A program made the position numbers and the translations under genes. A DNA stretch of 64,000 bases. Origin: Gemmatimonadota bacterium (GTDB taxonomy: Bacteria > Gemmatimonadota > Gemmatimonadetes > JACCXV01 > JAHWKZ01). The notes under the pieces are model-generated. The model was not told the origin of the DNA. It searched no databases and saw nothing but the letters and a program-made list of their open reading frames with translations. Shown piece after piece: positions 3,506 through 20,843 of this stretch (position 1 is the stretch's first letter; each line of letters starts with the position of its first letter). The stretch spans positions 1,384 to 65,383 of the forward strand of contig JBOHRQ010000008.1 of assembly GCA_050732875.1 (NCBI GenBank). The letters run 5' to 3'.

Positions 3506-4756
3506 GTGTCCTCTCCCTGGAGCTATCGCGAGGGTGATCTCGCCGCCGGCGGGATGCCGCTCGCGCACCTGGCCGACCGTCACGGCACGCCGCTTTACGT
3601 GTACCATCGCCCCACCATCGCCGAGCGGGTCTCCCGGGTCCGCAGTGCCTTTCGCGACCATCCGACGCGTCTGTGCTACTCGGTCAAGGCGAACTCCAAC
3701 CTGCGCCTGCTGAAGTGGCTGGCGCAGCTCGGGGTCGGCTTCGACGTGGTCTCCGGGGGCGAGCTCGAGCGGCTGGAGGCGGTCGGGGTACCTCCCTCCG
3801 AGGTCGTTTTCGCCGGCGTCGGCAAGACACCCGGGGAGCTGTCGCGAGCGGTCGGCGGGGGCCTCTGGATGATCAATCTCGAGTCCGTCGAGGAGGCCCG
3901 GCGCGTGGCGGAGCTCGCCCGCGGCCACGCTCGCCCCACACCGGTCAGCCTGCGTCTCAACCCTGACGTGGATGCACGCACGCATCGCCACATCACCACC
4001 GGCCGCAAGGTCGACAAGTTCGGCATCGCCATCGGGGAGTTCGAGCCGTTGATCGAGTGGCTCAGCGCCGACCCGCACGTGGAGGTGGTCGGGCTCCACA
4101 TGCACATCGGAAGCCAGATCACCGATCCGGAGCCCTATCGGGACGGCCTCCGGGTCCTTCTGGATTGCGGACGGACCGCGCGCTCGGCCGGCGCCCCGGT
4201 CCGTTGGATCAACGCCGGGGGCGGCTTCGGAATCTCGTACGACGGCGACCCGGTGCCGTCCGCCGAGGACTACGCCCGCGCGATTCTGCCCGGCGTGCAG
4301 GATTTCGGCGCGGAGCTCCTGCTGGAGCTCGGCCGCTATCTGGTCGGACCGGCCGGCTGCCTCCTGACCCGGGTCCTCTACCGGAAGGAGCGAAGCGGGC
4401 GGGCGCTCGTCGTGGTGGACGCCGGGATGAACGATCTCGTCCGTCCGGCCCTGTACGAGGCCAAGCATCGGATCTGGCCGTTGACGGAGCGGGACGGGAG
4501 CCGGCCTACCGACATCGCCGGACCGATCTGCGAGTCGACCGACTTCCTGGGACGCGATCGCCCCCTGCCGCCGCTCGAGCCCGGCGACCTGCTGGCGGTC
4601 CTCGACACGGGCGCCTACGGGATGGCGATGGCCAGCCACTACAACACGCACCCGCGTGCCGCCGAGGTGTGGATCACGGAAGACGGCGTGGCCGAGACGA
4701 TCCGTCGCCGCGAGACCGTCGACGACGTGCTGGCCATCGAGCGCGAAGCGCTCTGA
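3506..4756 (+). CDS. lysA: diaminopimelate decarboxylase
   Basis: Motifs of the Orn/DAP/Arg decarboxylase fold: 'GTPLYVY', 'YSVKANSN', 'GFDVVSGGEL', 'EPGRYLVG', 'CESTD'. It is 416 aa. Confidence 0.9.
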   Translation: MSSPWSYREGDLAAGGMPLAHLADRHGTPLYVYHRPTIAERVSRVRSAFRDHPTRLCYSVKANSNLRLLKWLAQLGVGFDVVSGGELERLEAVGVPPSEVVFAGVGKTPGELSRAVGGGLWMINLESVEEARRVAELARGHARPTPVSLRLNPDVDARTHRHITTGRKVDKFGIAIGEFEPLIEWLSADPHVEVVGLHMHIGSQITDPEPYRDGLRVLLDCGRTARSAGAPVRWINAGGGFGISYDGDPVPSAEDYARAILPGVQDFGAELLLELGRYLVGPAGCLLTRVLYRKERSGRALVVVDAGMNDLVRPALYEAKHRIWPLTERDGSRPTDIAGPICESTDFLGRDRPLPPLEPGDLLAVLDTGAYGMAMASHYNTHPRAAEVWITEDGVAETIRRRETVDDVLAIEREAL

Positions 4757-14342: not shown

Positions 14343-14927
14343 TCAGCCCGGGGACGGCAGAAGCTCGAGCCCAGCCGACTCGGCGGCGGCGCGATACCAG
14401 CGGCCCAGCTCCGGGACTTGATAATGGGCGTTGAGACCGCTCGGATTGGGCAGCGCCCAGAGCTCGGCCCCCGACAGCCGTTCCTCCTGCCTGCCCACTT
14501 CCGCTCCCGGCCGCTGGAAGGCCGCCCGGTAGGCGGTGAGCCCGACCACGGCGACCACGCGCGGCTCGAGTCGCGCCACCTTCCGGATCAGCCCGCGCGC
14601 CCCCGCGCGCAGCTCGTCGGTCCCGAGCTCGTCCGCCCGCGCCGTGGCCCGGTCGACCAGGTTGGTGATGCCGATCCCCCGGTCGAGAAGCGCAGCCCGC
14701 GAGAGACGGTCGAAGCCGCCCCGGACGTCCAGCTCCTTGGCGACCAGCCCACCGGCGTGAAGGGCCTTGTAGAAGCGGTTCCCGGGGCGCGCGAAGTGGG
14801 CCTGCACGGCGGCGGTCCAGAGGCCGGGATTGATCCCGACGAAGAGTAGCCGGACGTCCGTGCGGACCAGGTCGGGCACGCCGCGTCCGCGAGCGGCCTC
14901 GAGATCGGCGCGAGAAGGCCTCGTCAC
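14343..14927 (-). CDS. mug: G/U mismatch-specific uracil-DNA glycosylase (Mug/TDG family)
   Basis: 'LLFVGINPG', 'GNRFYKAL' and 'LPNPSGLNA' align to E. coli Mug. Start proposed at GTG 14927, which leaves a 160-nt divergent regulatory region. Confidence 0.7.
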   Translation of the reverse strand: MTRPSRADLEAARGRGVPDLVRTDVRLLFVGINPGLWTAAVQAHFARPGNRFYKALHAGGLVAKELDVRGGFDRLSRAALLDRGIGITNLVDRATARADELGTDELRAGARGLIRKVARLEPRVVAVVGLTAYRAAFQRPGAEVGRQEERLSGAELWALPNPSGLNAHYQVPELGRWYRAAAESAGLELLPSPG

Positions 14928-15004
14928 GCCTTCAACATCGGACCGACCGAAGCCGGCCGCCAACCCGCCTGCGCCGGTGGAGCGGGCCGCGTATACTCGG
15001 GCGC

Positions 15005-15085
15005 CGACAGGGGTGCTGGGTTCGCTCCCGGCTGAGATCACACCCTCAGGACCTGATCCGGGTAATGCCGGCGAAGGGAGGTCGC
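15005..15085 (+). ncRNA. TPP (THI-box) riboswitch
   Basis: 'GGGGUGCUGGG...GCUGAGAUCACACCCUCAGGACCUGAUCCGGGUAAUGCCGGCGAAGGGAGG' matches the THI element (GGGGUGC, CUGAGA, ACCUGAUC.GG.UAAUGCC.GCG.AGGGA). It ends in the GGGAGG SD sequence of tenA. Confidence 0.8.
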
Positions 15086-15087
15086 GC

Positions 15088-15753
15088 ATGGGATTCTCCG
15101 CCGATCTGATCGAACGGGTGGGACCGCTCTGGAGGCGGATGCTCGACCACCCCTTCCTGCTCGAGACGCGCGACGGTTCGCTCCCCGACTCGACGTTCGC
15201 ACGCTGGATGCGCCAGGACTACCTGTTCGTCGAGGCGGCGATCCCGTTCATGGAGGCGCTGGTCGCGAAGGCCCCGGCCGGGCATCGAAAACCCCTGACC
15301 GACGCGATCAAGGCATTCCACGGCGAGCTCGAGATCTTCCGCGAGCGCGCCGGCGCGGCAGGTGTCGACCTCAAGGACATCGCGCCGGCCTTCGTCTGTC
15401 ACGCCTACGTCCAGTTCCTGCTCTCCACCGCTTCCTACGCCGGCTATCCGGAGGGGTTCACCGTCCTCTATGCGGCCGAGAAGGCGTATCACGAGTCGTG
15501 GAAGGTGGTGAGGTCGGGAATCGCCCCGGACTCGCCGTGGACAGGTTTCGTCGAGAACTGGGCGGGCGACGCGTTCGCCGGATGGGTGGCCTGGCTGGAG
15601 GCCGAGCTGGACGCGCTGGCCGATGAGGCCGGGCCGGCGGCGGGCGAGCGGATGGCGCAGCTCTTCGATCTCACCGTCCGCTACGAGATCGCGTTCTGGG
15701 AGCTGGCTTACGGCCGCGCCGACGGCTGGCCGGGGGTCGAGACGAAGCCGTGA
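15088..15753 (+). CDS. tenA: TenA/thiaminase II family (aminopyrimidine aminohydrolase)
   Basis: GGGAGG then 6 nt then ATG. 'FARWMRQDYLFVEA', 'HAYVQFLL' and 'YEIAFWELAY' are TenA signatures, including the catalytic Cys context 'FVCHAY'. Confidence 0.85.
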   Translation: MGFSADLIERVGPLWRRMLDHPFLLETRDGSLPDSTFARWMRQDYLFVEAAIPFMEALVAKAPAGHRKPLTDAIKAFHGELEIFRERAGAAGVDLKDIAPAFVCHAYVQFLLSTASYAGYPEGFTVLYAAEKAYHESWKVVRSGIAPDSPWTGFVENWAGDAFAGWVAWLEAELDALADEAGPAAGERMAQLFDLTVRYEIAFWELAYGRADGWPGVETKP

Positions 15754-16418
15754 CCGCCTTCACCGACGAGCTTTTCGAGGCCGGACGGCTGATCTGGGAG
15801 GCCCAGCTCGAGCACCCTTTCGTGAAGGGAATCGCGGCCGGCGGCCTCGACGAGGACCGGTTCCGGCGCTGGGTCGTCCAGGACTACCTGTACCTGAAGG
15901 AGTTCGCGCGCGTCTTCGCGTGGGCGGCGGCGAAGGCCGACCGTCTCGAGGGGATGTCCTGGTACGCGGCGGCCCTCGACCTGACGCTCAACAGCGAGAT
16001 GGACCTCCACCGCACGTACGCCGCCCGCTTCGGGCTGTCGGCGGCGGACCTGGAGGCGGGCGAGATGTGGCCGACCACCCGCGCCTATACGGACTTTCTC
16101 GTGCGCACGGCGGCTGACGGTGATCTGGCCGAGCTGGTCGCGGCGCTCCTTCCCTGTGCCTGGGGGTACGCGTGGATCGGGAAGCGCCTCGCCGAGGAGG
16201 GGCGTCCGGCCGATGCGCGCTACGCGGACTGGATCGAACAGTACGCCGCGCCGGAGTTCCAGGCGGCGGCGGAGTGGCTGAAGGCGGAGATGGACCGGCT
16301 GGCGGCGGATGCGTCCTCCGAGAAGCGTGAGCGACTACGCGCGCTCTTTGTCCTCTCCAGCCGTTACGAGTGGCTGTTCTGGGACATGTGCTGGCGGGGC
16401 GAGGCGTGGCCGGTGTAG
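15750..16418 (+). CDS. TenA/thiaminase II family paralog
   Basis: The GTG at 15750 overlaps the upstream stop (GTGA). 'FRRWVVQDYLYLKEF', 'LPCAWGYAWIG', 'YEWLFWDM'. Confidence 0.8.
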   Translation: MTAFTDELFEAGRLIWEAQLEHPFVKGIAAGGLDEDRFRRWVVQDYLYLKEFARVFAWAAAKADRLEGMSWYAAALDLTLNSEMDLHRTYAARFGLSAADLEAGEMWPTTRAYTDFLVRTAADGDLAELVAALLPCAWGYAWIGKRLAEEGRPADARYADWIEQYAAPEFQAAAEWLKAEMDRLAADASSEKRERLRALFVLSSRYEWLFWDMCWRGEAWPV

Positions 16419-16470
16419 GATAGCGCCACCGTTCGGGAGCCTGACCTGGACACACAGCCCGGAGCCCGCC

Positions 16471-19038
16471 CTGCCGAAGCGGCTCGCGATCACCGCCGCG
16501 CTCCTCCTCGGCGCCGCCCCGCTGGCCGCGCAGACGATCCCGTCCCCCTCCGTATACCTGGGGATCGAGATCGGCGCCGACCGGACGCTCGCCGACTACC
16601 ATCAGATCCGCCGCTACTTCGCGATGCTGGACTCGGTCTCGGAGCGGGTCGTGGTCGAGGACTTGGGCCCGACCACGCAGGGCGAGCCGATGATCGTGAC
16701 GGTCATCTCGAGCGCGGAGAACATCGCCAACAGGGAGCGCATCAAGGATATCGCGCGCCGGCTCGCCGACCCGCGGGGCCTCGCGGACGACGAGGCGGAG
16801 CGGCTGATCGCCGAGGGGCGAGCGGTCGTCATCGTCACCGGCAACATCCACTCGACCGAGATCGGGTCCAGCCAGATGGCGATGGAGTGGGCGCACGACC
16901 TGGCCGCGGCCGAGGATCCGGAGACGCTCAGCCGACTCGAGAACGTGGTGCTCCTGCTCGTCCCTTCGGTCAATCCGGACGGCCAGATCATGGAGGTCGA
17001 GTGGTATCGCCGCTGGCTGGGGACGCCGTACGAGGGGGGCCGCATGCCGTGGCTCTATCACGAGTACGTGGGCCACGACAACAATCGTGACTGGTTCATG
17101 CTGACCCAGGCCGAGACGCGTCACCTGACGCGGGCGGTCTACCACGAGTGGTTCCCTCAGGTGTGGGTCGACCATCACCAGATGGGCGACCAGACCCCGC
17201 GCATGTTCATCCCGCCCTTCTCCGACCCTATGGACCCCGGGATCCATCCCCTGATCTGGCGCGAGATCAATTTGATCGGAGCGAACATGGCGTACCGGCT
17301 CGAGCAGGCCGGGAAGGCGGGAGTCATTTACGGCTATTCGTACGACGCATACTGGATCGGCGGAACGCGCAACACGGGATGGTGGAAGAACATCACCGGG
17401 CTCCTGACGGAGACGGCTTCGGCGCGGATGGCCAGTCCGCTCCGCGTCTACCCGGGCGAGCTCGAGGGTGGGCGGAAGGGCCTCGTCGAGTACGGCCCAC
17501 AGATCAACCACCCGAACCCCTGGCCAGGTGGGGAATGGCGTCTGCGGGACATCATGGAGTACCAGCGGGTCGCCTCCGACGCGCTCCTCGAAACCGCGGC
17601 GACCCGGCGCGAGGATCTGCTCCGCGACATGCTCGAGCGCGCCCGGGACGCGATCGCGAAGGCCGAGCCGGACGAGGCGTACCTGATCCGGCGCGACCAG
17701 CGCGACTACCCGACCGCGAGACGGCTGGCGCAGCTCCTGGCCGACCACGGCGTGGAGGTGCGGCAGGCGGGGAACGGCGACTACTGGATTCCGCTCGCCC
17801 AGCCCTACGCGCGGTTCGTGCGCGAGATGCTGGAGCCTCAGCGCTATCCCGAGATCACGCCCGTACAGGGAGCGGAGTTCCTTCGACCCTACGATGTCTC
17901 GGCGTGGACGCTCCCCCTCATGATGGGGGTCGAGGTGGAACGGACGCGGCTCCCCGGGGGCCTCACCGCGAAGCGGCTTCCGCACGCGCTGGGCGGGACC
18001 GTGCCGAAGCCCATCCTGACCCCCGACCGCTTCGGCGCCATGCCCGAGGATTCCGCAGCCGACCCGCCCGGACCGATGACGGTCCCGAGGACTTCCCCCG
18101 AGTCGGCCAGGATCGTGAATTCGGCGCTGGCCGGGGGTACCAGCGTGCATGTCGCTCCGGACGGGACCTTCTATGTGGGTGAGCCGACGGCCGCCGGGAT
18201 GCGCACGATCGACGGAACCGTGATCGGCGACGCGGAGGGAGGGCCTTATGCCTGGACGTTTCCTCCCGACGCCTGGACCCTCCGCGCCCCCCGCGTGGCC
18301 ACCTACAAGCCGTGGCTCGCCTCGATGGACGAGGGCTGGACGCGATGGGTGCTGGAGACCTACGGATTCGACGTGACCGCGCTCGAGACGGACGCGATCC
18401 TGCGGGGCGATCTGTCCGGATTCGACGCGCTCATCCTCCCCGACATCGACCCCCCCGTCATCGCCAGCGGAAAGCCGGAGCGTGAAGGAGACGAGATGCG
18501 CTACTGGCGGGAGCTGCCGCCCGAGTACGGTGGAGGCCTGGGCGAAGAGGGCGCCCGGGCGATCCGCGAGTTCGTCGAGCAGGGCGGCACGCTGATCGCG
18601 TTCGACTCGTCGATCCAGTACGTGGTCGACGAGTTCAACGTGCCCGTCCGGAACGCCCTGGCCGGCGTCTCGCGCGGCGACTTCGACGCTCCGGGGGCGC
18701 TGCTCCGGGTCGACGTGGACTCCACCCACCCGCTCGGCCACGGCCTCCCCGAAGCGGTCGCTGTGTTCCTGGACGACGCGACCGCGCTGGCCACCGAGCC
18801 GCCGGGACCGGAGCTGGAGCGATGGGTGGTGGCGAGCTACCCGGCCGACGACCGCGACATCCTGCTCTCGGGCTGGATCGAGGGCGCCGAGCGGCTGGAG
18901 CGCCGCGCCGCGGCGGTCGCCCTCACCTATGGCAGAGGGCGGATCGCGCTCTTCGCCTTCCGTCCCCAGCATCGCGGGCAGACCCACGCCACCTTCCCGT
19001 TCCTCTTCAATGCCATCTGGTGGTCGGTGGCGCCCTAG
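16471..19038 (+). CDS. M14-family zinc carboxypeptidase with long C-terminal extension (secreted)
   Basis: M14 motifs 'HSTEIGS' (Zn His/Glu), 'VNPDG', 'HDNNRDW', 'WVDHHQMG'. The signal peptide 'PKRLAITAALLLGAAPLAAQ' has no ATG/GTG/TTG before it. Start proposed at CTG 16471, preceded by GGAG then 6 nt. The alternative is ATG 16309, overlapping tenA by 110 nt. Confidence 0.7.
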   Translation: MPKRLAITAALLLGAAPLAAQTIPSPSVYLGIEIGADRTLADYHQIRRYFAMLDSVSERVVVEDLGPTTQGEPMIVTVISSAENIANRERIKDIARRLADPRGLADDEAERLIAEGRAVVIVTGNIHSTEIGSSQMAMEWAHDLAAAEDPETLSRLENVVLLLVPSVNPDGQIMEVEWYRRWLGTPYEGGRMPWLYHEYVGHDNNRDWFMLTQAETRHLTRAVYHEWFPQVWVDHHQMGDQTPRMFIPPFSDPMDPGIHPLIWREINLIGANMAYRLEQAGKAGVIYGYSYDAYWIGGTRNTGWWKNITGLLTETASARMASPLRVYPGELEGGRKGLVEYGPQINHPNPWPGGEWRLRDIMEYQRVASDALLETAATRREDLLRDMLERARDAIAKAEPDEAYLIRRDQRDYPTARRLAQLLADHGVEVRQAGNGDYWIPLAQPYARFVREMLEPQRYPEITPVQGAEFLRPYDVSAWTLPLMMGVEVERTRLPGGLTAKRLPHALGGTVPKPILTPDRFGAMPEDSAADPPGPMTVPRTSPESARIVNSALAGGTSVHVAPDGTFYVGEPTAAGMRTIDGTVIGDAEGGPYAWTFPPDAWTLRAPRVATYKPWLASMDEGWTRWVLETYGFDVTALETDAILRGDLSGFDALILPDIDPPVIASGKPEREGDEMRYWRELPPEYGGGLGEEGARAIREFVEQGGTLIAFDSSIQYVVDEFNVPVRNALAGVSRGDFDAPGALLRVDVDSTHPLGHGLPEAVAVFLDDATALATEPPGPELERWVVASYPADDRDILLSGWIEGAERLERRAAAVALTYGRGRIALFAFRPQHRGQTHATFPFLFNAIWWSVAP

Positions 19039-19091
19039 CTGCCCGGCTCCCGTTCGTTGGCGGGGCGAGCGGGGAGCGGTATCGTGATGAC

Positions 19092-20843
19092 GTGCGCCGA
19101 TCGCTGTTCGCCCCCGCGCTGATCCTCGGGCTGGCGGCGAGTCCAGCCATCGCTTTCCAGCAGCCGAGCGACTCCATCGACGTCCTCCAGGAGGCCCGGG
19201 CCGCCCAGGTCGAGTTCGAGCGGGTGCGCATGGCCCACCTCCCCTGGGGCTCGAGCCGGGCCGGCTCCGCTCGCGACGAGATCGTGGGACGACTGGTTCT
19301 GCTGGGCGACGAGGGGGAGGAGTGGCGGGCGCCGCCCGATCCGTCGCCGGTGGTCGAGGCGCGGCGGGAGCTCCTGGGGGCGCTCTCCGGAGCCGCCGCC
19401 GACCTCCCGGGCGACGGATGGATCGCGGGCCAGCGTGTTTTCTACCACGTCGAGGCTGGGCGCGCCGACGCCGCCCTCGCGGCGGCGCGCGAGTGCCGGG
19501 GGGAGGCATGGTGGTGCCACGCCCTGGCTGGCTACGCCCATCACGCGGCGGGTGACTTCGTGGCCTCTGAGGCCGCGTTCGAGGAAGCGCTGGCGGGAAT
19601 GCCGTCCACCGACCGGCGGCGCTGGCTCGATCTCGACGATCTCATTGAGGGCGAGGCGGAGCAGGCGTACCGGGACTCCGAGGATGGAGACCGTGCCGCC
19701 TTTCTCGGCCGCTTCTGGTGGCTCGCCGATCCGCTCTGGAGCCTGTCCGGCAACGACCGCCGCACCGAGCACTTCTCCCGGCACGTCCTGGACCGGATCC
19801 TCAGGGACGCCCGGACGCCGTTCGAGCTGGGATGGGGGAGCGACCTGCGCGAGGTCCTGATCCGCTACGGCTGGCCGACCGGCTGGGAGCGGATCCGGGC
19901 CCGGACGTGGGCGCTGGGAGCCGGAGGCGGGTCGGGCGTGGTCGGCCACGATCCGCTCGGCGAGCGGCGCTTCGTGGCGAGCGGGGACGCGTTCGCGCGG
20001 CCGACGGAGCGCGACTTCGTACAGGGGAGCCTCGAGGATGACGGGGCCCGCTCCACCTACGCGCCGGCCTACGCCGAGCGGTTCGTCGACCTCGACCACC
20101 AGCTCGCGATCTTCCGGCGCGGGGATTCCGCGCGGGTCGTGGCGGGGTGGAGCCTGCCTCCCGATTCGCTCGGCGGATCGACGCGTGGCCCGTCAGCGGA
20201 CTCGTCCGCTGGCGACGTCGAGGCGGCCCTCGTCGTGTCTACGGATCCTGAATCGCCTTTCCGACTCGTCCGGTCGAGGGAGTCGGGCGTCTCCGGCACC
20301 CTGGCCCTGACCGTGGCGTGGTCCCCCGCCGTCGTCAGCGTCGAGGCGCTGGCCCGGGAGGCCAGCCTGGCCGCGCGCGCCCGCTACGGACTGCCGATCG
20401 ACGGACCGGCGGGCAGGCGTCCCGCGCTCTCGGACCTGCTGCTCGTGGACCCCGCCGGAGGGTTGCCCCGCTCGCTCCGGGAAGCCACCTCGCGGGCGAG
20501 GGCAAGCGTGCGCGTCGAGCCGGATCGATCCGTGGGGGTCTTCTGGGAGATCTACCCTCCGGGGGGCGGACCCTACGAAGCGCGGCTCTCGATGCGCCTC
20601 AAGGACGAGCAAGGGGGCTTCTGGAAGGGCCTCGGAGCGGCGCTCGGCCTGACCGATCGAGCGGGAGGCTCGGTCGCCCTCGAATGGATCGAAACGATTC
20701 CGGCCCGCCAGGAGGTCTATCCGCGCGCGCTGGTCCTGAGTCTCCCGGACCTTCCGCCGGGCCGCTACGCGCTGGAGCTGGAGGTCGTGCTCCCGGACTC
20801 GCGGAGGGCGTGGGTGGAGCGGCCGATCGTGGTCGAGGAATAG
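19092..20843 (+). CDS. secreted hypothetical protein (583 aa), possibly GWxTD-like
   Basis: GTG 19092 gives the signal peptide 'MRRSLFAPALILGLAASPAIA'. Trp-rich motifs 'FWWLADPLW', 'YGWPTGWERI'. No assignable catalytic domain. Confidence 0.5.
   Translation: MRRSLFAPALILGLAASPAIAFQQPSDSIDVLQEARAAQVEFERVRMAHLPWGSSRAGSARDEIVGRLVLLGDEGEEWRAPPDPSPVVEARRELLGALSGAAADLPGDGWIAGQRVFYHVEAGRADAALAAARECRGEAWWCHALAGYAHHAAGDFVASEAAFEEALAGMPSTDRRRWLDLDDLIEGEAEQAYRDSEDGDRAAFLGRFWWLADPLWSLSGNDRRTEHFSRHVLDRILRDARTPFELGWGSDLREVLIRYGWPTGWERIRARTWALGAGGGSGVVGHDPLGERRFVASGDAFARPTERDFVQGSLEDDGARSTYAPAYAERFVDLDHQLAIFRRGDSARVVAGWSLPPDSLGGSTRGPSADSSAGDVEAALVVSTDPESPFRLVRSRESGVSGTLALTVAWSPAVVSVEALAREASLAARARYGLPIDGPAGRRPALSDLLLVDPAGGLPRSLREATSRARASVRVEPDRSVGVFWEIYPPGGGPYEARLSMRLKDEQGGFWKGLGAALGLTDRAGGSVALEWIETIPARQEVYPRALVLSLPDLPPGRYALELEVVLPDSRRAWVERPIVVEE

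What the first reader, a model, noticed from the sequence alone, without database searches (positions are those of the whole stretch)
14928..16418. TPP riboswitch controlling two tandem, translationally coupled tenA paralogs
The 5' UTR contains a textbook THI box ending in the tenA Shine-Dalgarno (SD) sequence, giving an SD-sequestration mechanism. Two TenA/thiaminase-II paralogs follow with a 4-nt GTGA overlap. This points to a thiamine-responsive pyrimidine salvage unit with a duplicated enzyme. The two copies are clearly diverged, one with 'FVCHAY' and the other 'LPCAWGY'. Divergence on this scale suggests the copies may differ in substrate. That is a guess from sequence alone.
Basis: seen in the sequence. 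Interest (0 to 1): 0.55.

Follow-up and report, generated by a model that had tools for sequence, protein, structure and literature searches.

The report
Thiamine riboswitch controlling TenA_E–TenA_C salvage operon
A genuine thiamine-pyrophosphate riboswitch sits directly on the ribosome-binding site of a two-gene operon whose products belong to two ancient, different branches of the TenA family and probably recycle broken-down vitamin B1 in two steps; all the parts are of known kinds.

Summary
Rfam TPP (RF00059) matches 14999-15097 at 65.1 bits, above the 54.3 threshold, and is the only Rfam hit in the window. The fold shows covariation in P1, P2, P3 and P5 across 41 related elements.

Two TenA-family ORFs follow: 15088-15753 and 15750-16418, with a GTGA overlap.

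The interpretation needs one correction. These are not a recently duplicated enzyme.
- ORF1 is TenA_E. It has no catalytic Cys, carries Glu131, and its closest solved structures are P. furiosus PF1337 and Arabidopsis At3g16990.
- ORF2 is canonical TenA_C, thiaminase II, with Cys136. It passes TIGR04306.

The tenA_E→tenA_C pair is conserved in 69 of 80 related loci, almost all Gemmatimonadota MAGs. A TPP element precedes it in 39 of them.

Most likely function: TPP-repressed, translationally coupled two-step salvage of formylamino-HMP → amino-HMP → HMP.

In the window and its four closest relatives the riboswitch has no expression platform. The aptamer's own 3' AGGGAGG is the Shine-Dalgarno, 6 nt before the ATG, which implies direct occlusion. 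More distant relatives carry a classic anti-SD/SD hairpin. Platform-less riboswitches were already described in Actinobacteria.

Verdict: real, well formed, and a new member of known kinds. Interest is moderate to low.

The parts
14992..14997 (+). Putative -10 promoter box TATACT. It lies 7-8 nt upstream of the P1 5' strand, which would place the transcription start at about 15004, so the whole 5' UTR would be the aptamer.
   Evidence: Invariant at the same distance in the window and L001-L004, while the flanking sequence varies. The sigma-70 consensus scan found no full promoter, so this is an inference.
14999..15097 (+). TPP riboswitch aptamer (THI element, RF00059). Helices: P1 15005-15008/15081-15084; P2 15009-15014/15040-15046; P3 15015-15019/15028-15032; P4 15052-15054/15075-15077; P5 15058-15061/15068-15071. 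P3a is absent.
   Evidence: Rfam 65.1 bits against a gathering score of 54.3. My own model scores it 88.9 bits. Covariation across 41 homologous elements.
15076..15082 (+). Shine-Dalgarno GGGAGGU, embedded in the aptamer. G15076-G15077 pair in P4, G15078-A15079 are the conserved junction GA, G15080 is a lineage-specific inserted G, and G15081-U15082 pair in P1.
   Evidence: Spacing to the ATG at 15088 is 6 nt. SD-like motifs occur before some other genes of this contig.
15088..15753 (+). tenA_E, 221 aa: a Cys-less TenA subfamily protein and predicted formylaminopyrimidine amidohydrolase / aminopyrimidine aminohydrolase. In its own numbering the key residues are Asp44, Phe47, Tyr107, Ala130 (at the catalytic-Cys position), Glu131, Trp158 and Glu200.
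   Evidence: Pfam PF03070 at 70 bits. It fails the TIGR04306 cutoff, 41.8 against 130. Best PDB matches are 1RTW PF1337 (6e-42) and 2F2G At3g16990 (1.5e-18). Diagnostic residues are shared by 79/79 orthologues. Tree split supported 188/200.
15750..15753 (+). GTGA overlap: the tenA_C start GTG overlaps the tenA_E stop TGA. This is a translational coupling site.
   Evidence: The same 4-nt overlap occurs in 16 of 69 related loci, and the median gap is 4 nt. There is no SD-like motif before the GTG.
15750..16418 (+). tenA_C, 222 aa: canonical thiaminase II / aminopyrimidine aminohydrolase, with the catalytic Cys136 in LLPCAWGY.
   Evidence: TIGR04306 at 182 bits against a cutoff of 130. Pfam 184 bits. 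PDB matches 3IBX H. pylori (1e-41) and 1TYH/1YAF B. subtilis TenA (1e-37). Residues matching B. subtilis Asp44, Tyr47, Tyr112, Cys135, Tyr163, Glu205 and Phe208 are all conserved.

Best explanation
This is a TPP-repressed, bicistronic thiamine-pyrimidine salvage operon from a Gemmatimonadota MAG. A short leader, apparently starting at about 15004, consists only of a TPP aptamer.

When TPP is abundant it binds the aptamer. The P1, P4 and P5 helices and the three-way junction close over the Shine-Dalgarno (15076-15082), which is part of the aptamer's own conserved 3' strand. P1 then ends 3 nt before the AUG. The 30S subunit cannot bind and tenA_E is not translated. This is direct occlusion, with no separate expression platform. 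When TPP is scarce the weak 4-bp P1 and the junction open, and the SD becomes available.

tenA_C has no SD of its own. Its GTG overlaps the tenA_E stop codon (GTGA), so it is translated by ribosomes terminating on tenA_E, and both proteins follow the same switch.

[quoted passage not shown] TenA_C (Cys136) is predicted to hydrolyse amino-HMP to HMP, which re-enters thiamine synthesis through ThiD and ThiE.

Shown here: the aptamer, its covariation, the geometry of the SD and start codon, the subfamily assignment of both proteins, and the conservation of the gene pair. Inferred: TPP binding, the direction of regulation, direct occlusion, translational coupling, and the substrates.
For: Aptamer:
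- Rfam score is above threshold.
- 33 related loci have an Rfam gathering-score TPP hit in the same position, and 39 do with a clade-specific model.
- Compensatory changes occur in P1, P2, P3 and P5. 95.6% of cells are paired against at most 60% when the partners are slid.

Geometry:
- The aptamer core ends 9 nt before the ATG in the window and L001, and 8 nt before the GTG in L002-L004. One inserted G turns AGGGAG into GGGAGG.
- An invariant TATACT box sits 7-8 nt before P1.
- With the aptamer fold imposed, P1 extends to 15087.
- The start codon is fixed by N-terminal conservation, M-G-F from residue 1, in the A1 alignment and against PF1337.
- More distant relatives have a 45-110 nt platform in which an anti-SD (CCCTCTCTGC) can pair with a downstream SD (GCAGGGAGG) that mimics the aptamer's 3' strand. 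The same sequence therefore has a regulatory role there.

Proteins:
- Reciprocal PDB best hits and the NCBIfam cutoffs.
- Subfamily-discriminating residues in 79/79 upstream copies and 66/66 downstream copies.
- A tree split supported 188/200.

Pathway:
- The literature reports TenA_E as an amidohydrolase doing the job of YlmB, and TenA_C as the amino-HMP hydrolase (PMC5635689, PMC10470507, both citing Zallot 2014).
- A JGI record names a 64%-identical orthologue 'formylaminopyrimidine deformylase / aminopyrimidine aminohydrolase'.

Operon:
- tenA_E→tenA_C occurs in 69/80 loci with a median gap of 4 nt.
- No other neighbouring gene family is conserved in more than 14 loci.
Against: - No experiment bears on this locus.
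- Secondary-structure thermodynamics do not discriminate the two states. The unconstrained MFE is not the aptamer fold. In the free ensemble the SD is already mostly paired with codons 3-4, with mean unpaired probability 0.17 against 0.50 under the aptamer constraint. This is common in 67% GC RNA and ignores tertiary and ligand energy.
- No bacterial TenA_E has, to my knowledge, been assayed. The plant enzyme also performs the second step, so a strict division of labour is not proven.
- PMC10470507 reports that some marine bacteria with TenA_E could not use exogenous FAMP.
- About half of the related loci keep the gene pair without any TPP element.
- The promoter is inferred from one conserved hexamer; the consensus scan found none.
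Confidence: 0.7

Rival explanations
1. Redundant isozymes. Both proteins act as amino-HMP aminohydrolases (thiaminase II). The tandem arrangement only raises dosage or widens operating conditions, and there is no sequential pathway.
For: The Arabidopsis and maize TenA_E enzymes also hydrolyse amino-HMP, though less actively (abstract of Zallot 2014 as I recall it; PMC10470507 Fig. 1 context). PMC10470507 states that the advantage of having both forms is unknown.
Against: The two proteins differ at every subfamily-discriminating active-site position in 79/79 and 66/66 orthologues. The heterotypic pair and its gene order are kept in 69/80 species-level loci, which is not expected for simple dosage. 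ORF1 lacks the nucleophilic Cys that TenA_C uses.
Confidence: 0.15
2. Hetero-oligomer. TenA_E and TenA_C are subunits of one mixed complex. Overlapping genes would deliver 1:1 stoichiometry, and the substrate would be channelled between the two kinds of site or have a new specificity.
For: Gene order is strictly conserved, and overlaps or gaps are very short (median 4 nt). That pattern is typical of subunit pairs. The PDB entries for TenA proteins hold 2 to 8 chains.
Against: No heteromeric TenA has been reported in the literature I could search. 16 of 69 loci have gaps above 40 nt, and 7 loci have tenA_E without tenA_C nearby. Not testable with the tools here, which predict single chains only.
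Confidence: 0.1
3. The main regulatory output is transcriptional, by Rho-dependent termination or mRNA decay after translation is blocked, or the aptamer is a non-functional relic.
For: TPP riboswitches with dual translational and Rho-dependent control are known (PMC10907184). About half of the related operons function without a riboswitch.
Against: There is no room for an intrinsic terminator, since the aptamer core ends 9 nt before the ATG, and none is predicted. Every nucleotide that is invariant across the 33 aligned relatives is also present in the window, and the score is 11 bits above threshold, which argues against decay. A Rho effect would be additional to SD occlusion, not an alternative to it.
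Confidence: 0.1

Closest known systems
B. subtilis tenA-operon and E. coli thiM TPP riboswitches (RF00059)
   Same: The aptamer architecture is the same (P1-P5, with the CUGAGA and ACCUGAUCNGG...CGNAGGGA cores). The ligand class and the kind of regulated gene are the same: tenA is a classic member of the THI regulon.
   Different: B. subtilis tenA uses an intrinsic terminator. E. coli thiM uses a separate anti-SD/SD platform, a strand-exchange mechanism (PMC10907184). Here there is no platform at all and the aptamer's 3' strand is the SD. P3a is deleted.
Platform-less riboswitches of Actinobacteria, in which the base stem overlaps the translation initiation site
   Same: The SD and start codon lie directly in or beside the base stem P1, 'without additional regulatory hairpins' (PMC1262725).
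   Different: That paper said Actinobacteria seemed to be the only group with this arrangement. Here it occurs in Gemmatimonadota. Sister lineages still have the full anti-SD/SD platform, so the loss of the platform can be traced within one gene family. It appears to have arisen a second time in L047.
TenA_E subfamily (Arabidopsis At3g16990, maize GRMZM2G080501, P. furiosus PF1337)
   Same: ORF1 lacks the active-site Cys. It keeps the Glu equivalent to PF1337 Glu129 / At Glu140, and shares Phe47 and Trp163 with these proteins. PF1337 is its best structural relative, at 36% identity.
   Different: ORF1 has only one of the two PF1337 glutamates (Ala130-Glu131 against Glu128-Glu129), as in plants. 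It is not biochemically characterised. It is encoded in a riboswitch-controlled operon with TenA_C.
B. subtilis / B. halodurans YlmB + TenA base-degraded-thiamine salvage pathway (Jenkins et al. 2007)
   Same: The predicted chemistry is the same two steps, FAMP → amino-HMP → HMP, and the second enzyme is the same (TenA_C).
   Different: The first step is predicted to be done by a TenA_E paralogue instead of the unrelated amidohydrolase YlmB, as in plants. The two genes are fused into one translationally coupled operon.

Membership tests
TPP riboswitch (Rfam RF00059) | Covariance-model score at or above the curated gathering score of 54.3 bits | tested here: met
   65.1 bits, E 1.6e-10, model positions 1-105.
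TPP riboswitch (Rfam RF00059) | P1-P5 helices supported by covariation in homologues | tested here: met
   Across 41 elements, 10 of 22 pairs have changes on both sides (P1 3/4, P2 2/5, P3 4/6, P5 1/4). P4 is invariant. 0 of 500 shuffles reach the observed score, and slid controls pair at most 60% of cells. The alignment was fitted to the model, so it leans towards the structure. RNAalifold on a plain MAFFT alignment independently recovers P2-P5.
TPP riboswitch (Rfam RF00059) | Conserved ligand-contacting cores (CUGAGA in J3-2; ACCUGAUC...GCG.AGGGA in P4/P5) | tested here: met
   All are present and invariant in the window and 32 relatives.
TPP riboswitch (Rfam RF00059) | Binds TPP and changes gene expression | not testable with these tools
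   Needs in-line probing or ITC, and reporter assays.
TenA_C / thiaminase II (TIGR04306) | HMM score above the equivalog cutoff (130 bits) | tested here: met
   ORF2 scores 182.1 bits. ORF1 scores 41.8 bits and is not a member.
TenA_C / thiaminase II (TIGR04306) | Active-site Cys (B. subtilis Cys135), plus Asp44, Tyr47, Tyr112, Tyr163, Glu205 and Phe208 | tested here: met
   All are conserved in ORF2 and in 66/66 downstream copies.
TenA_E subfamily | TenA fold (PF03070) without the active-site Cys | tested here: met
   PF03070 at 70 bits. Ala130 occupies the Cys135 position; across the 79 orthologues it is Ala in 77, Gly in 1 and Ser in 1.
TenA_E subfamily | Conserved glutamates: the PF1337 Glu129 / At Glu140 equivalent and the B. 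subtilis Glu205 equivalent | tested here: met
   Glu131 and Glu200 in ORF1 are invariant in 79/79 orthologues. This is the criterion stated in PMC5635689.
TenA_E subfamily | Groups with characterised TenA_E proteins rather than TenA_C in a phylogeny | tested here: met
   The NJ split {upstream copies + PF1337 + At3g16990} against {downstream copies + Bs, Hp, Ph TenA} is found in 188/200 bootstraps. This is a simple distance tree on 27 sequences.
TenA_E subfamily | FAMP amidohydrolase activity | not testable with these tools
   Needs an enzyme assay.
Direct-occlusion (platform-less) translational riboswitch | The ribosome-binding site is embedded in or abuts the aptamer, with no alternative hairpin between aptamer and start codon | tested here: met
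   The SD at 15076-15082 is inside the aptamer. There are 3 nt between the end of P1 (15084) and the ATG (15088). The layout is the same in L001-L004.
Direct-occlusion (platform-less) translational riboswitch | SD accessibility depends on the ligand | tested here: inconclusive
   ViennaRNA gives a mean SD unpaired probability of 0.17 in the free ensemble and 0.50 with the aptamer imposed, with ddG +6 kcal/mol. A secondary-structure model cannot represent burial in the junction or ligand energy.

The most novel reading that the evidence does not exclude
Within one orthologous operon of Gemmatimonadota, a TPP riboswitch has moved from the strand-exchange mechanism to direct occlusion. Strand exchange, with an anti-SD/SD platform, is the mechanism under which a 2024 review files the whole TPP class. 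The change came about by deleting the platform and inserting a single G, so that the aptamer's universally conserved AGGGAG strand became the Shine-Dalgarno itself. It seems to have happened at least twice (the window clade and L047).

The operon it controls would be a bacterial TenA_E→TenA_C two-enzyme route for FAMP salvage that replaces YlmB. This could explain why organisms keep both TenA forms, which PMC10470507 describes as unknown.
Probability: 0.45. Interest if true: 0.5.

Novelty: new member of a known kind. Interest (0 to 1): 0.33.

Why it matters
It gives a clean natural test case in two respects.

1. The whole 5' UTR appears to be a TPP aptamer of about 84 nt with the ribosome-binding site built in. 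Sister species carry the same aptamer with a classic platform. That makes a ready-made comparative series for asking how expression platforms are gained or lost.

2. The conserved, co-regulated TenA_E–TenA_C pair is genomic evidence that the two TenA subfamilies are not redundant in bacteria. It points to specific proteins for testing FAMP salvage, a process now under discussion in marine and soil vitamin B1 cycling.

None of this overturns current understanding.

Tried and rejected
- **Unconstrained folding of 14985-15125.** The MFE is not the aptamer and the z-score is +0.71. This says nothing about the switch.
- **Constrained against free ensemble SD accessibility.** Inconclusive.
- **Sigma-70 promoter and terminator scan of 14800-16700.** It found no promoter. 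The only terminator-like hits lie inside coding sequence. An intrinsic-terminator mechanism is rejected for lack of space.
- **RNAalifold on the MAFFT alignment A2.** It missed P1, because the inserted G in the window clade shifts the register. This was solved with a hand-given structure and a covariance-model alignment.
- **Zallot et al. 2014.** Could not be read, by DOI or by PMC id. Its content is cited only through PMC5635689, PMC10470507 and PMC10277260, or marked as recollection.
- **First tree script.** Timed out. A first rerun gave NaN distances and a misleading 91/200. The corrected rerun gave 188/200.
- **Conserved third gene (transporter, thiD, thiE, ylmB) next to the pair.** None is shared by more than 14 of 81 loci.
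- **thiC or a third TenA copy in the window.** None found.
- **Antisense and overlapping ORFs in 15038-16010 and 15988-19509 (minus strand).** These are Arg/Pro/Gly-rich, typical of high-GC shadow frames, and were not pursued.
Full report
**1. The observation**

The Rfam scan of the whole 64-kb window returns a single hit. It is the TPP riboswitch RF00059 at 14999-15097 on the + strand, at 65.1 bits against a gathering score of 54.3, E 1.6e-10, covering model positions 1-105 with the optional P3a stem deleted.

From the alignment and the sequence the helices are:
- P1: 15005-15008 / 15081-15084
- P2: 15009-15014 / 15040-15046
- P3: 15015-19 / 15028-32
- P4: 15052-54 / 15075-77
- P5: 15058-61 / 15068-71

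Two ORFs follow: 15088(ATG)-15753 (221 aa) and 15750(GTG)-16418 (222 aa). The GTG of the second overlaps the TGA of the first, as GTGA at 15750-15753. Both match Pfam PF03070 TENA_THI-4.

**2. The riboswitch is real and conserved**

A scan of GTDB species-representative genomes with an alignment of ORF1 homologues gave 80 loci. Almost all are Gemmatimonadota MAGs. ORF1 itself is 100% identical to a protein from a Gemmatimonadota MAG.
- Rfam at gathering threshold finds a TPP element upstream of the ORF1 homologue, on the same strand, in 33 of them.
- A clade-specific covariance model raises this to 39 of 80.

On the 41 aligned elements:
- 95.6% of cells form standard pairs, against 33-60% when the partners are slid.
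- 10 of 22 pairs show changes on both sides: P1 3/4, P2 2/5, P3 4/6, P5 1/4.
- P4 is invariant.
- No shuffle out of 500 reaches the observed covariation score.

That alignment is fitted to the model. RNAalifold on an unfitted MAFFT alignment still recovers P2-P5, with compensatory changes in P3.

**3. The two proteins are not a recent duplicate**

They are 28% identical.

*ORF2*
- It passes the NCBIfam thiaminase II equivalog TIGR04306, at 182 bits against a cutoff of 130.
- Its best solved relatives are H. pylori TenA (1e-41) and B. subtilis TenA (1e-37).

*ORF1*
- It scores only 41.8 bits on TIGR04306.
- Its best solved relatives are P. furiosus PF1337 (1RTW, 6e-42) and Arabidopsis At3g16990 (2F2G, 1.5e-18).
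- At3g16990 is the TenA_E protein characterised by Zallot et al. 2014, as reported in PMC5635689 and PMC10277260.

*Diagnostic residues.* These come from a joint alignment of 79 upstream copies, 66 downstream copies and five PDB sequences, in B. subtilis numbering.

| Position | Upstream copies | Downstream copies |
|---|---|---|
| 47 | Phe, 79/79 | Tyr, 66/66 |
| 135 (catalytic Cys) | Ala 77, Gly 1, Ser 1 | Cys, 66/66 |
| 136 | Glu, 79/79 | not Glu |
| 163 | Trp, 79/79 | Tyr, 66/66 |

The upstream pattern matches PF1337 and At3g16990 at positions 47, 136 and 163, and none of them has Cys at 135. The downstream pattern matches B. subtilis, H. pylori and P. horikoshii TenA. ORF1 Glu131 is the equivalent of PF1337 Glu129 / At Glu140, the residue used to define TenA_E.

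A neighbour-joining tree separates {upstream copies + PF1337 + At3g16990} from {downstream copies + the three TenA_C structures} in 188 of 200 bootstraps.

ORF2 Cys136 in LLPCAWGY aligns with ORF1 Ala130 in LYAAEKAY, and the Cys of FVCHAY lies in a different helix.

**4. The gene pair is the conserved unit**
- tenA_C lies immediately downstream of tenA_E, on the same strand, in 69 of 80 loci. Four of the other eleven are cut by contig ends.
- The gap is -4 in 16 loci, between -8 and -1 in 19, between 0 and 40 nt in 32, and has a median of 4 nt.
- No other neighbouring gene family recurs in more than 14 of 81 loci.

In the window the flanks are unrelated to thiamine:
- a divergent UDG-family glycosylase upstream;
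- an M14 peptidase downstream;
- aldehyde dehydrogenase, an HTH regulator, NUDIX and RND efflux genes further out.

There is no thiC and no third TenA copy in the window. A close relative, L004, has thiC with its own TPP riboswitch lying convergent to the pair. That lineage at least can also make HMP-P de novo.

**5. How the switch most likely works**

The aptamer's conserved 3' sequence CGAAGGGA is followed by one extra G, giving GGGAGG (15076-15081). Next come UCGCGC and the ATG at 15088. P1's 3' strand (15081-15084) includes the last SD bases, and P4's 3' strand includes the first. There is no room for a terminator or an anti-SD hairpin.

The start codon is fixed by conservation of the N-terminus, M-G-F, across the family and against PF1337.

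The same layout holds in the four closest relatives, L001-L004. They also share an invariant TATACT box 7-8 nt upstream of P1. The transcript probably begins at P1, so the leader would be nothing but the aptamer.

More distant relatives carry a 45-110 nt platform instead. In it a pyrimidine tract (for example CCCTCTCTGC) can pair either with the aptamer's GCAGGGAG or with a downstream look-alike SD, GCAGGGAGG. That is the classic strand-exchange design.

The window clade has therefore collapsed the platform and uses the aptamer strand itself as the SD. L047, a more distant locus, shows the same collapse. I infer direct occlusion of the ribosome-binding site by the TPP-bound aptamer.

Secondary-structure thermodynamics could not confirm this. 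The aptamer fold lies 6 kcal/mol above the free ensemble, and the SD is predicted to be largely paired in both states.

tenA_C has no SD-like motif upstream, while several other genes of the contig do. Together with the GTGA overlap this supports translational coupling.

**6. Predicted function**

According to the literature I could read:
- TenA_E acts as the amidohydrolase that converts FAMP to amino-HMP, the job YlmB does in Bacillus. It can also carry out the second step.
- TenA_C hydrolyses amino-HMP to HMP (PMC5635689, PMC10470507).

A conserved, co-translated TenA_E→TenA_C pair under a TPP OFF-switch fits a two-step salvage route that is turned on when TPP is scarce.

This part is inference. 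No bacterial TenA_E has been assayed that I know of, and PMC10470507 notes that the benefit of having both forms is unknown.

Rival readings cannot be excluded here. They are redundant isozymes, a hetero-oligomer, or an additional Rho-dependent output.

**7. Comparison with what is known**
- TPP control of tenA is textbook.
- The TenA_E / TenA_C split dates from 2014.
- Riboswitch base stems that overlap the translation start 'without additional regulatory hairpins' were described for Actinobacteria in 2004-2005 (PMC1262725).
- A 2024 review files the TPP class under strand exchange and does not list it among direct-occlusion riboswitches (PMC10907184).

What is possibly new is modest:
- this architecture occurs in Gemmatimonadota;
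- the loss of the platform can be traced within one operon family;
- the TenA_E–TenA_C operon is conserved across the phylum.

**8. Verdict**

This is a real, correctly recognised TPP riboswitch controlling a thiamine-pyrimidine salvage operon. It is a new member of known kinds, and interest is 0.33.

Noticed in passing
window 16309-16630 (start region of the M14 peptidase gene, 16309..19038 +): Between the tenA_C stop (16416-16418) and the signal-peptide-like stretch KRLAITAALLLGAAPLAAQ there is no in-frame ATG, GTG or TTG. Canonical starts exist only inside the tenA_C 3' end (ATG 16309, GTG 16327, TTG 16348), or there is a CTG at 16438. The public gene call instead starts at ATG 16624, which cuts off the signal peptide. 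No terminator follows tenA_C, so the peptidase may be co-transcribed or use a non-canonical start.
   Followed up: partly
L045:1880-1925, L049, L050, L051, L029 (and partly L057, L033), about 60-100 nt upstream of tenA_E: tenA_E–tenA_C loci without a riboswitch share a conserved motif, CTTGCGAC-N13-TTGCGGTTCCCTTT, with TGTCAACG further upstream (alignment A5). No Rfam family matches there at gathering threshold. It could be a promoter or an undescribed cis-regulatory element that replaces the riboswitch.
   Followed up: no
L010:1681-3001: Here the TPP aptamer (1681-1778) is followed first by a zinc-dependent medium-chain alcohol-dehydrogenase-like ORF (motif GVCHTELH) and only then by tenA_E–tenA_C. 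This is an unexpected gene to find under TPP control.
   Followed up: no
L004:2037-4024 (minus strand): thiC (HMP-P synthase) with its own TPP riboswitch (3906-4024, 61.4 bits) lies convergent to the pair and ends 11 nt after tenA_C. De novo and salvage routes to HMP therefore sit side by side, each under a separate riboswitch.
   Followed up: partly
L008, L013, L030, L038, L053 and others (13 loci), upstream of tenA_E: In one subclade the pair sits directly after succinate dehydrogenase / fumarate reductase flavoprotein and Fe-S subunit genes, with no TPP element. The salvage pair has been relocated repeatedly as a two-gene cassette.
   Followed up: partly
L047:2916-3010: A more distant lineage (61% protein identity) also has a platform-less TPP element...GGCGGAGGGAGTCGAAC|ATG. 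It scores below the Rfam gathering score but 47.6 bits with the clade model. This suggests independent loss of the expression platform.
   Followed up: partly
window 15093-15099: Codons 3-4 of tenA_E (UUC UCC) can pair with the SD (GGAGGUC / GA.UCUCC), forming a small hairpin around the start codon in the unconstrained fold. L003 and L004 keep a CUUCC there and L002 a weaker UUUCC. It is unclear whether this is functional or only a consequence of the Phe-Ser codons.
   Followed up: partly
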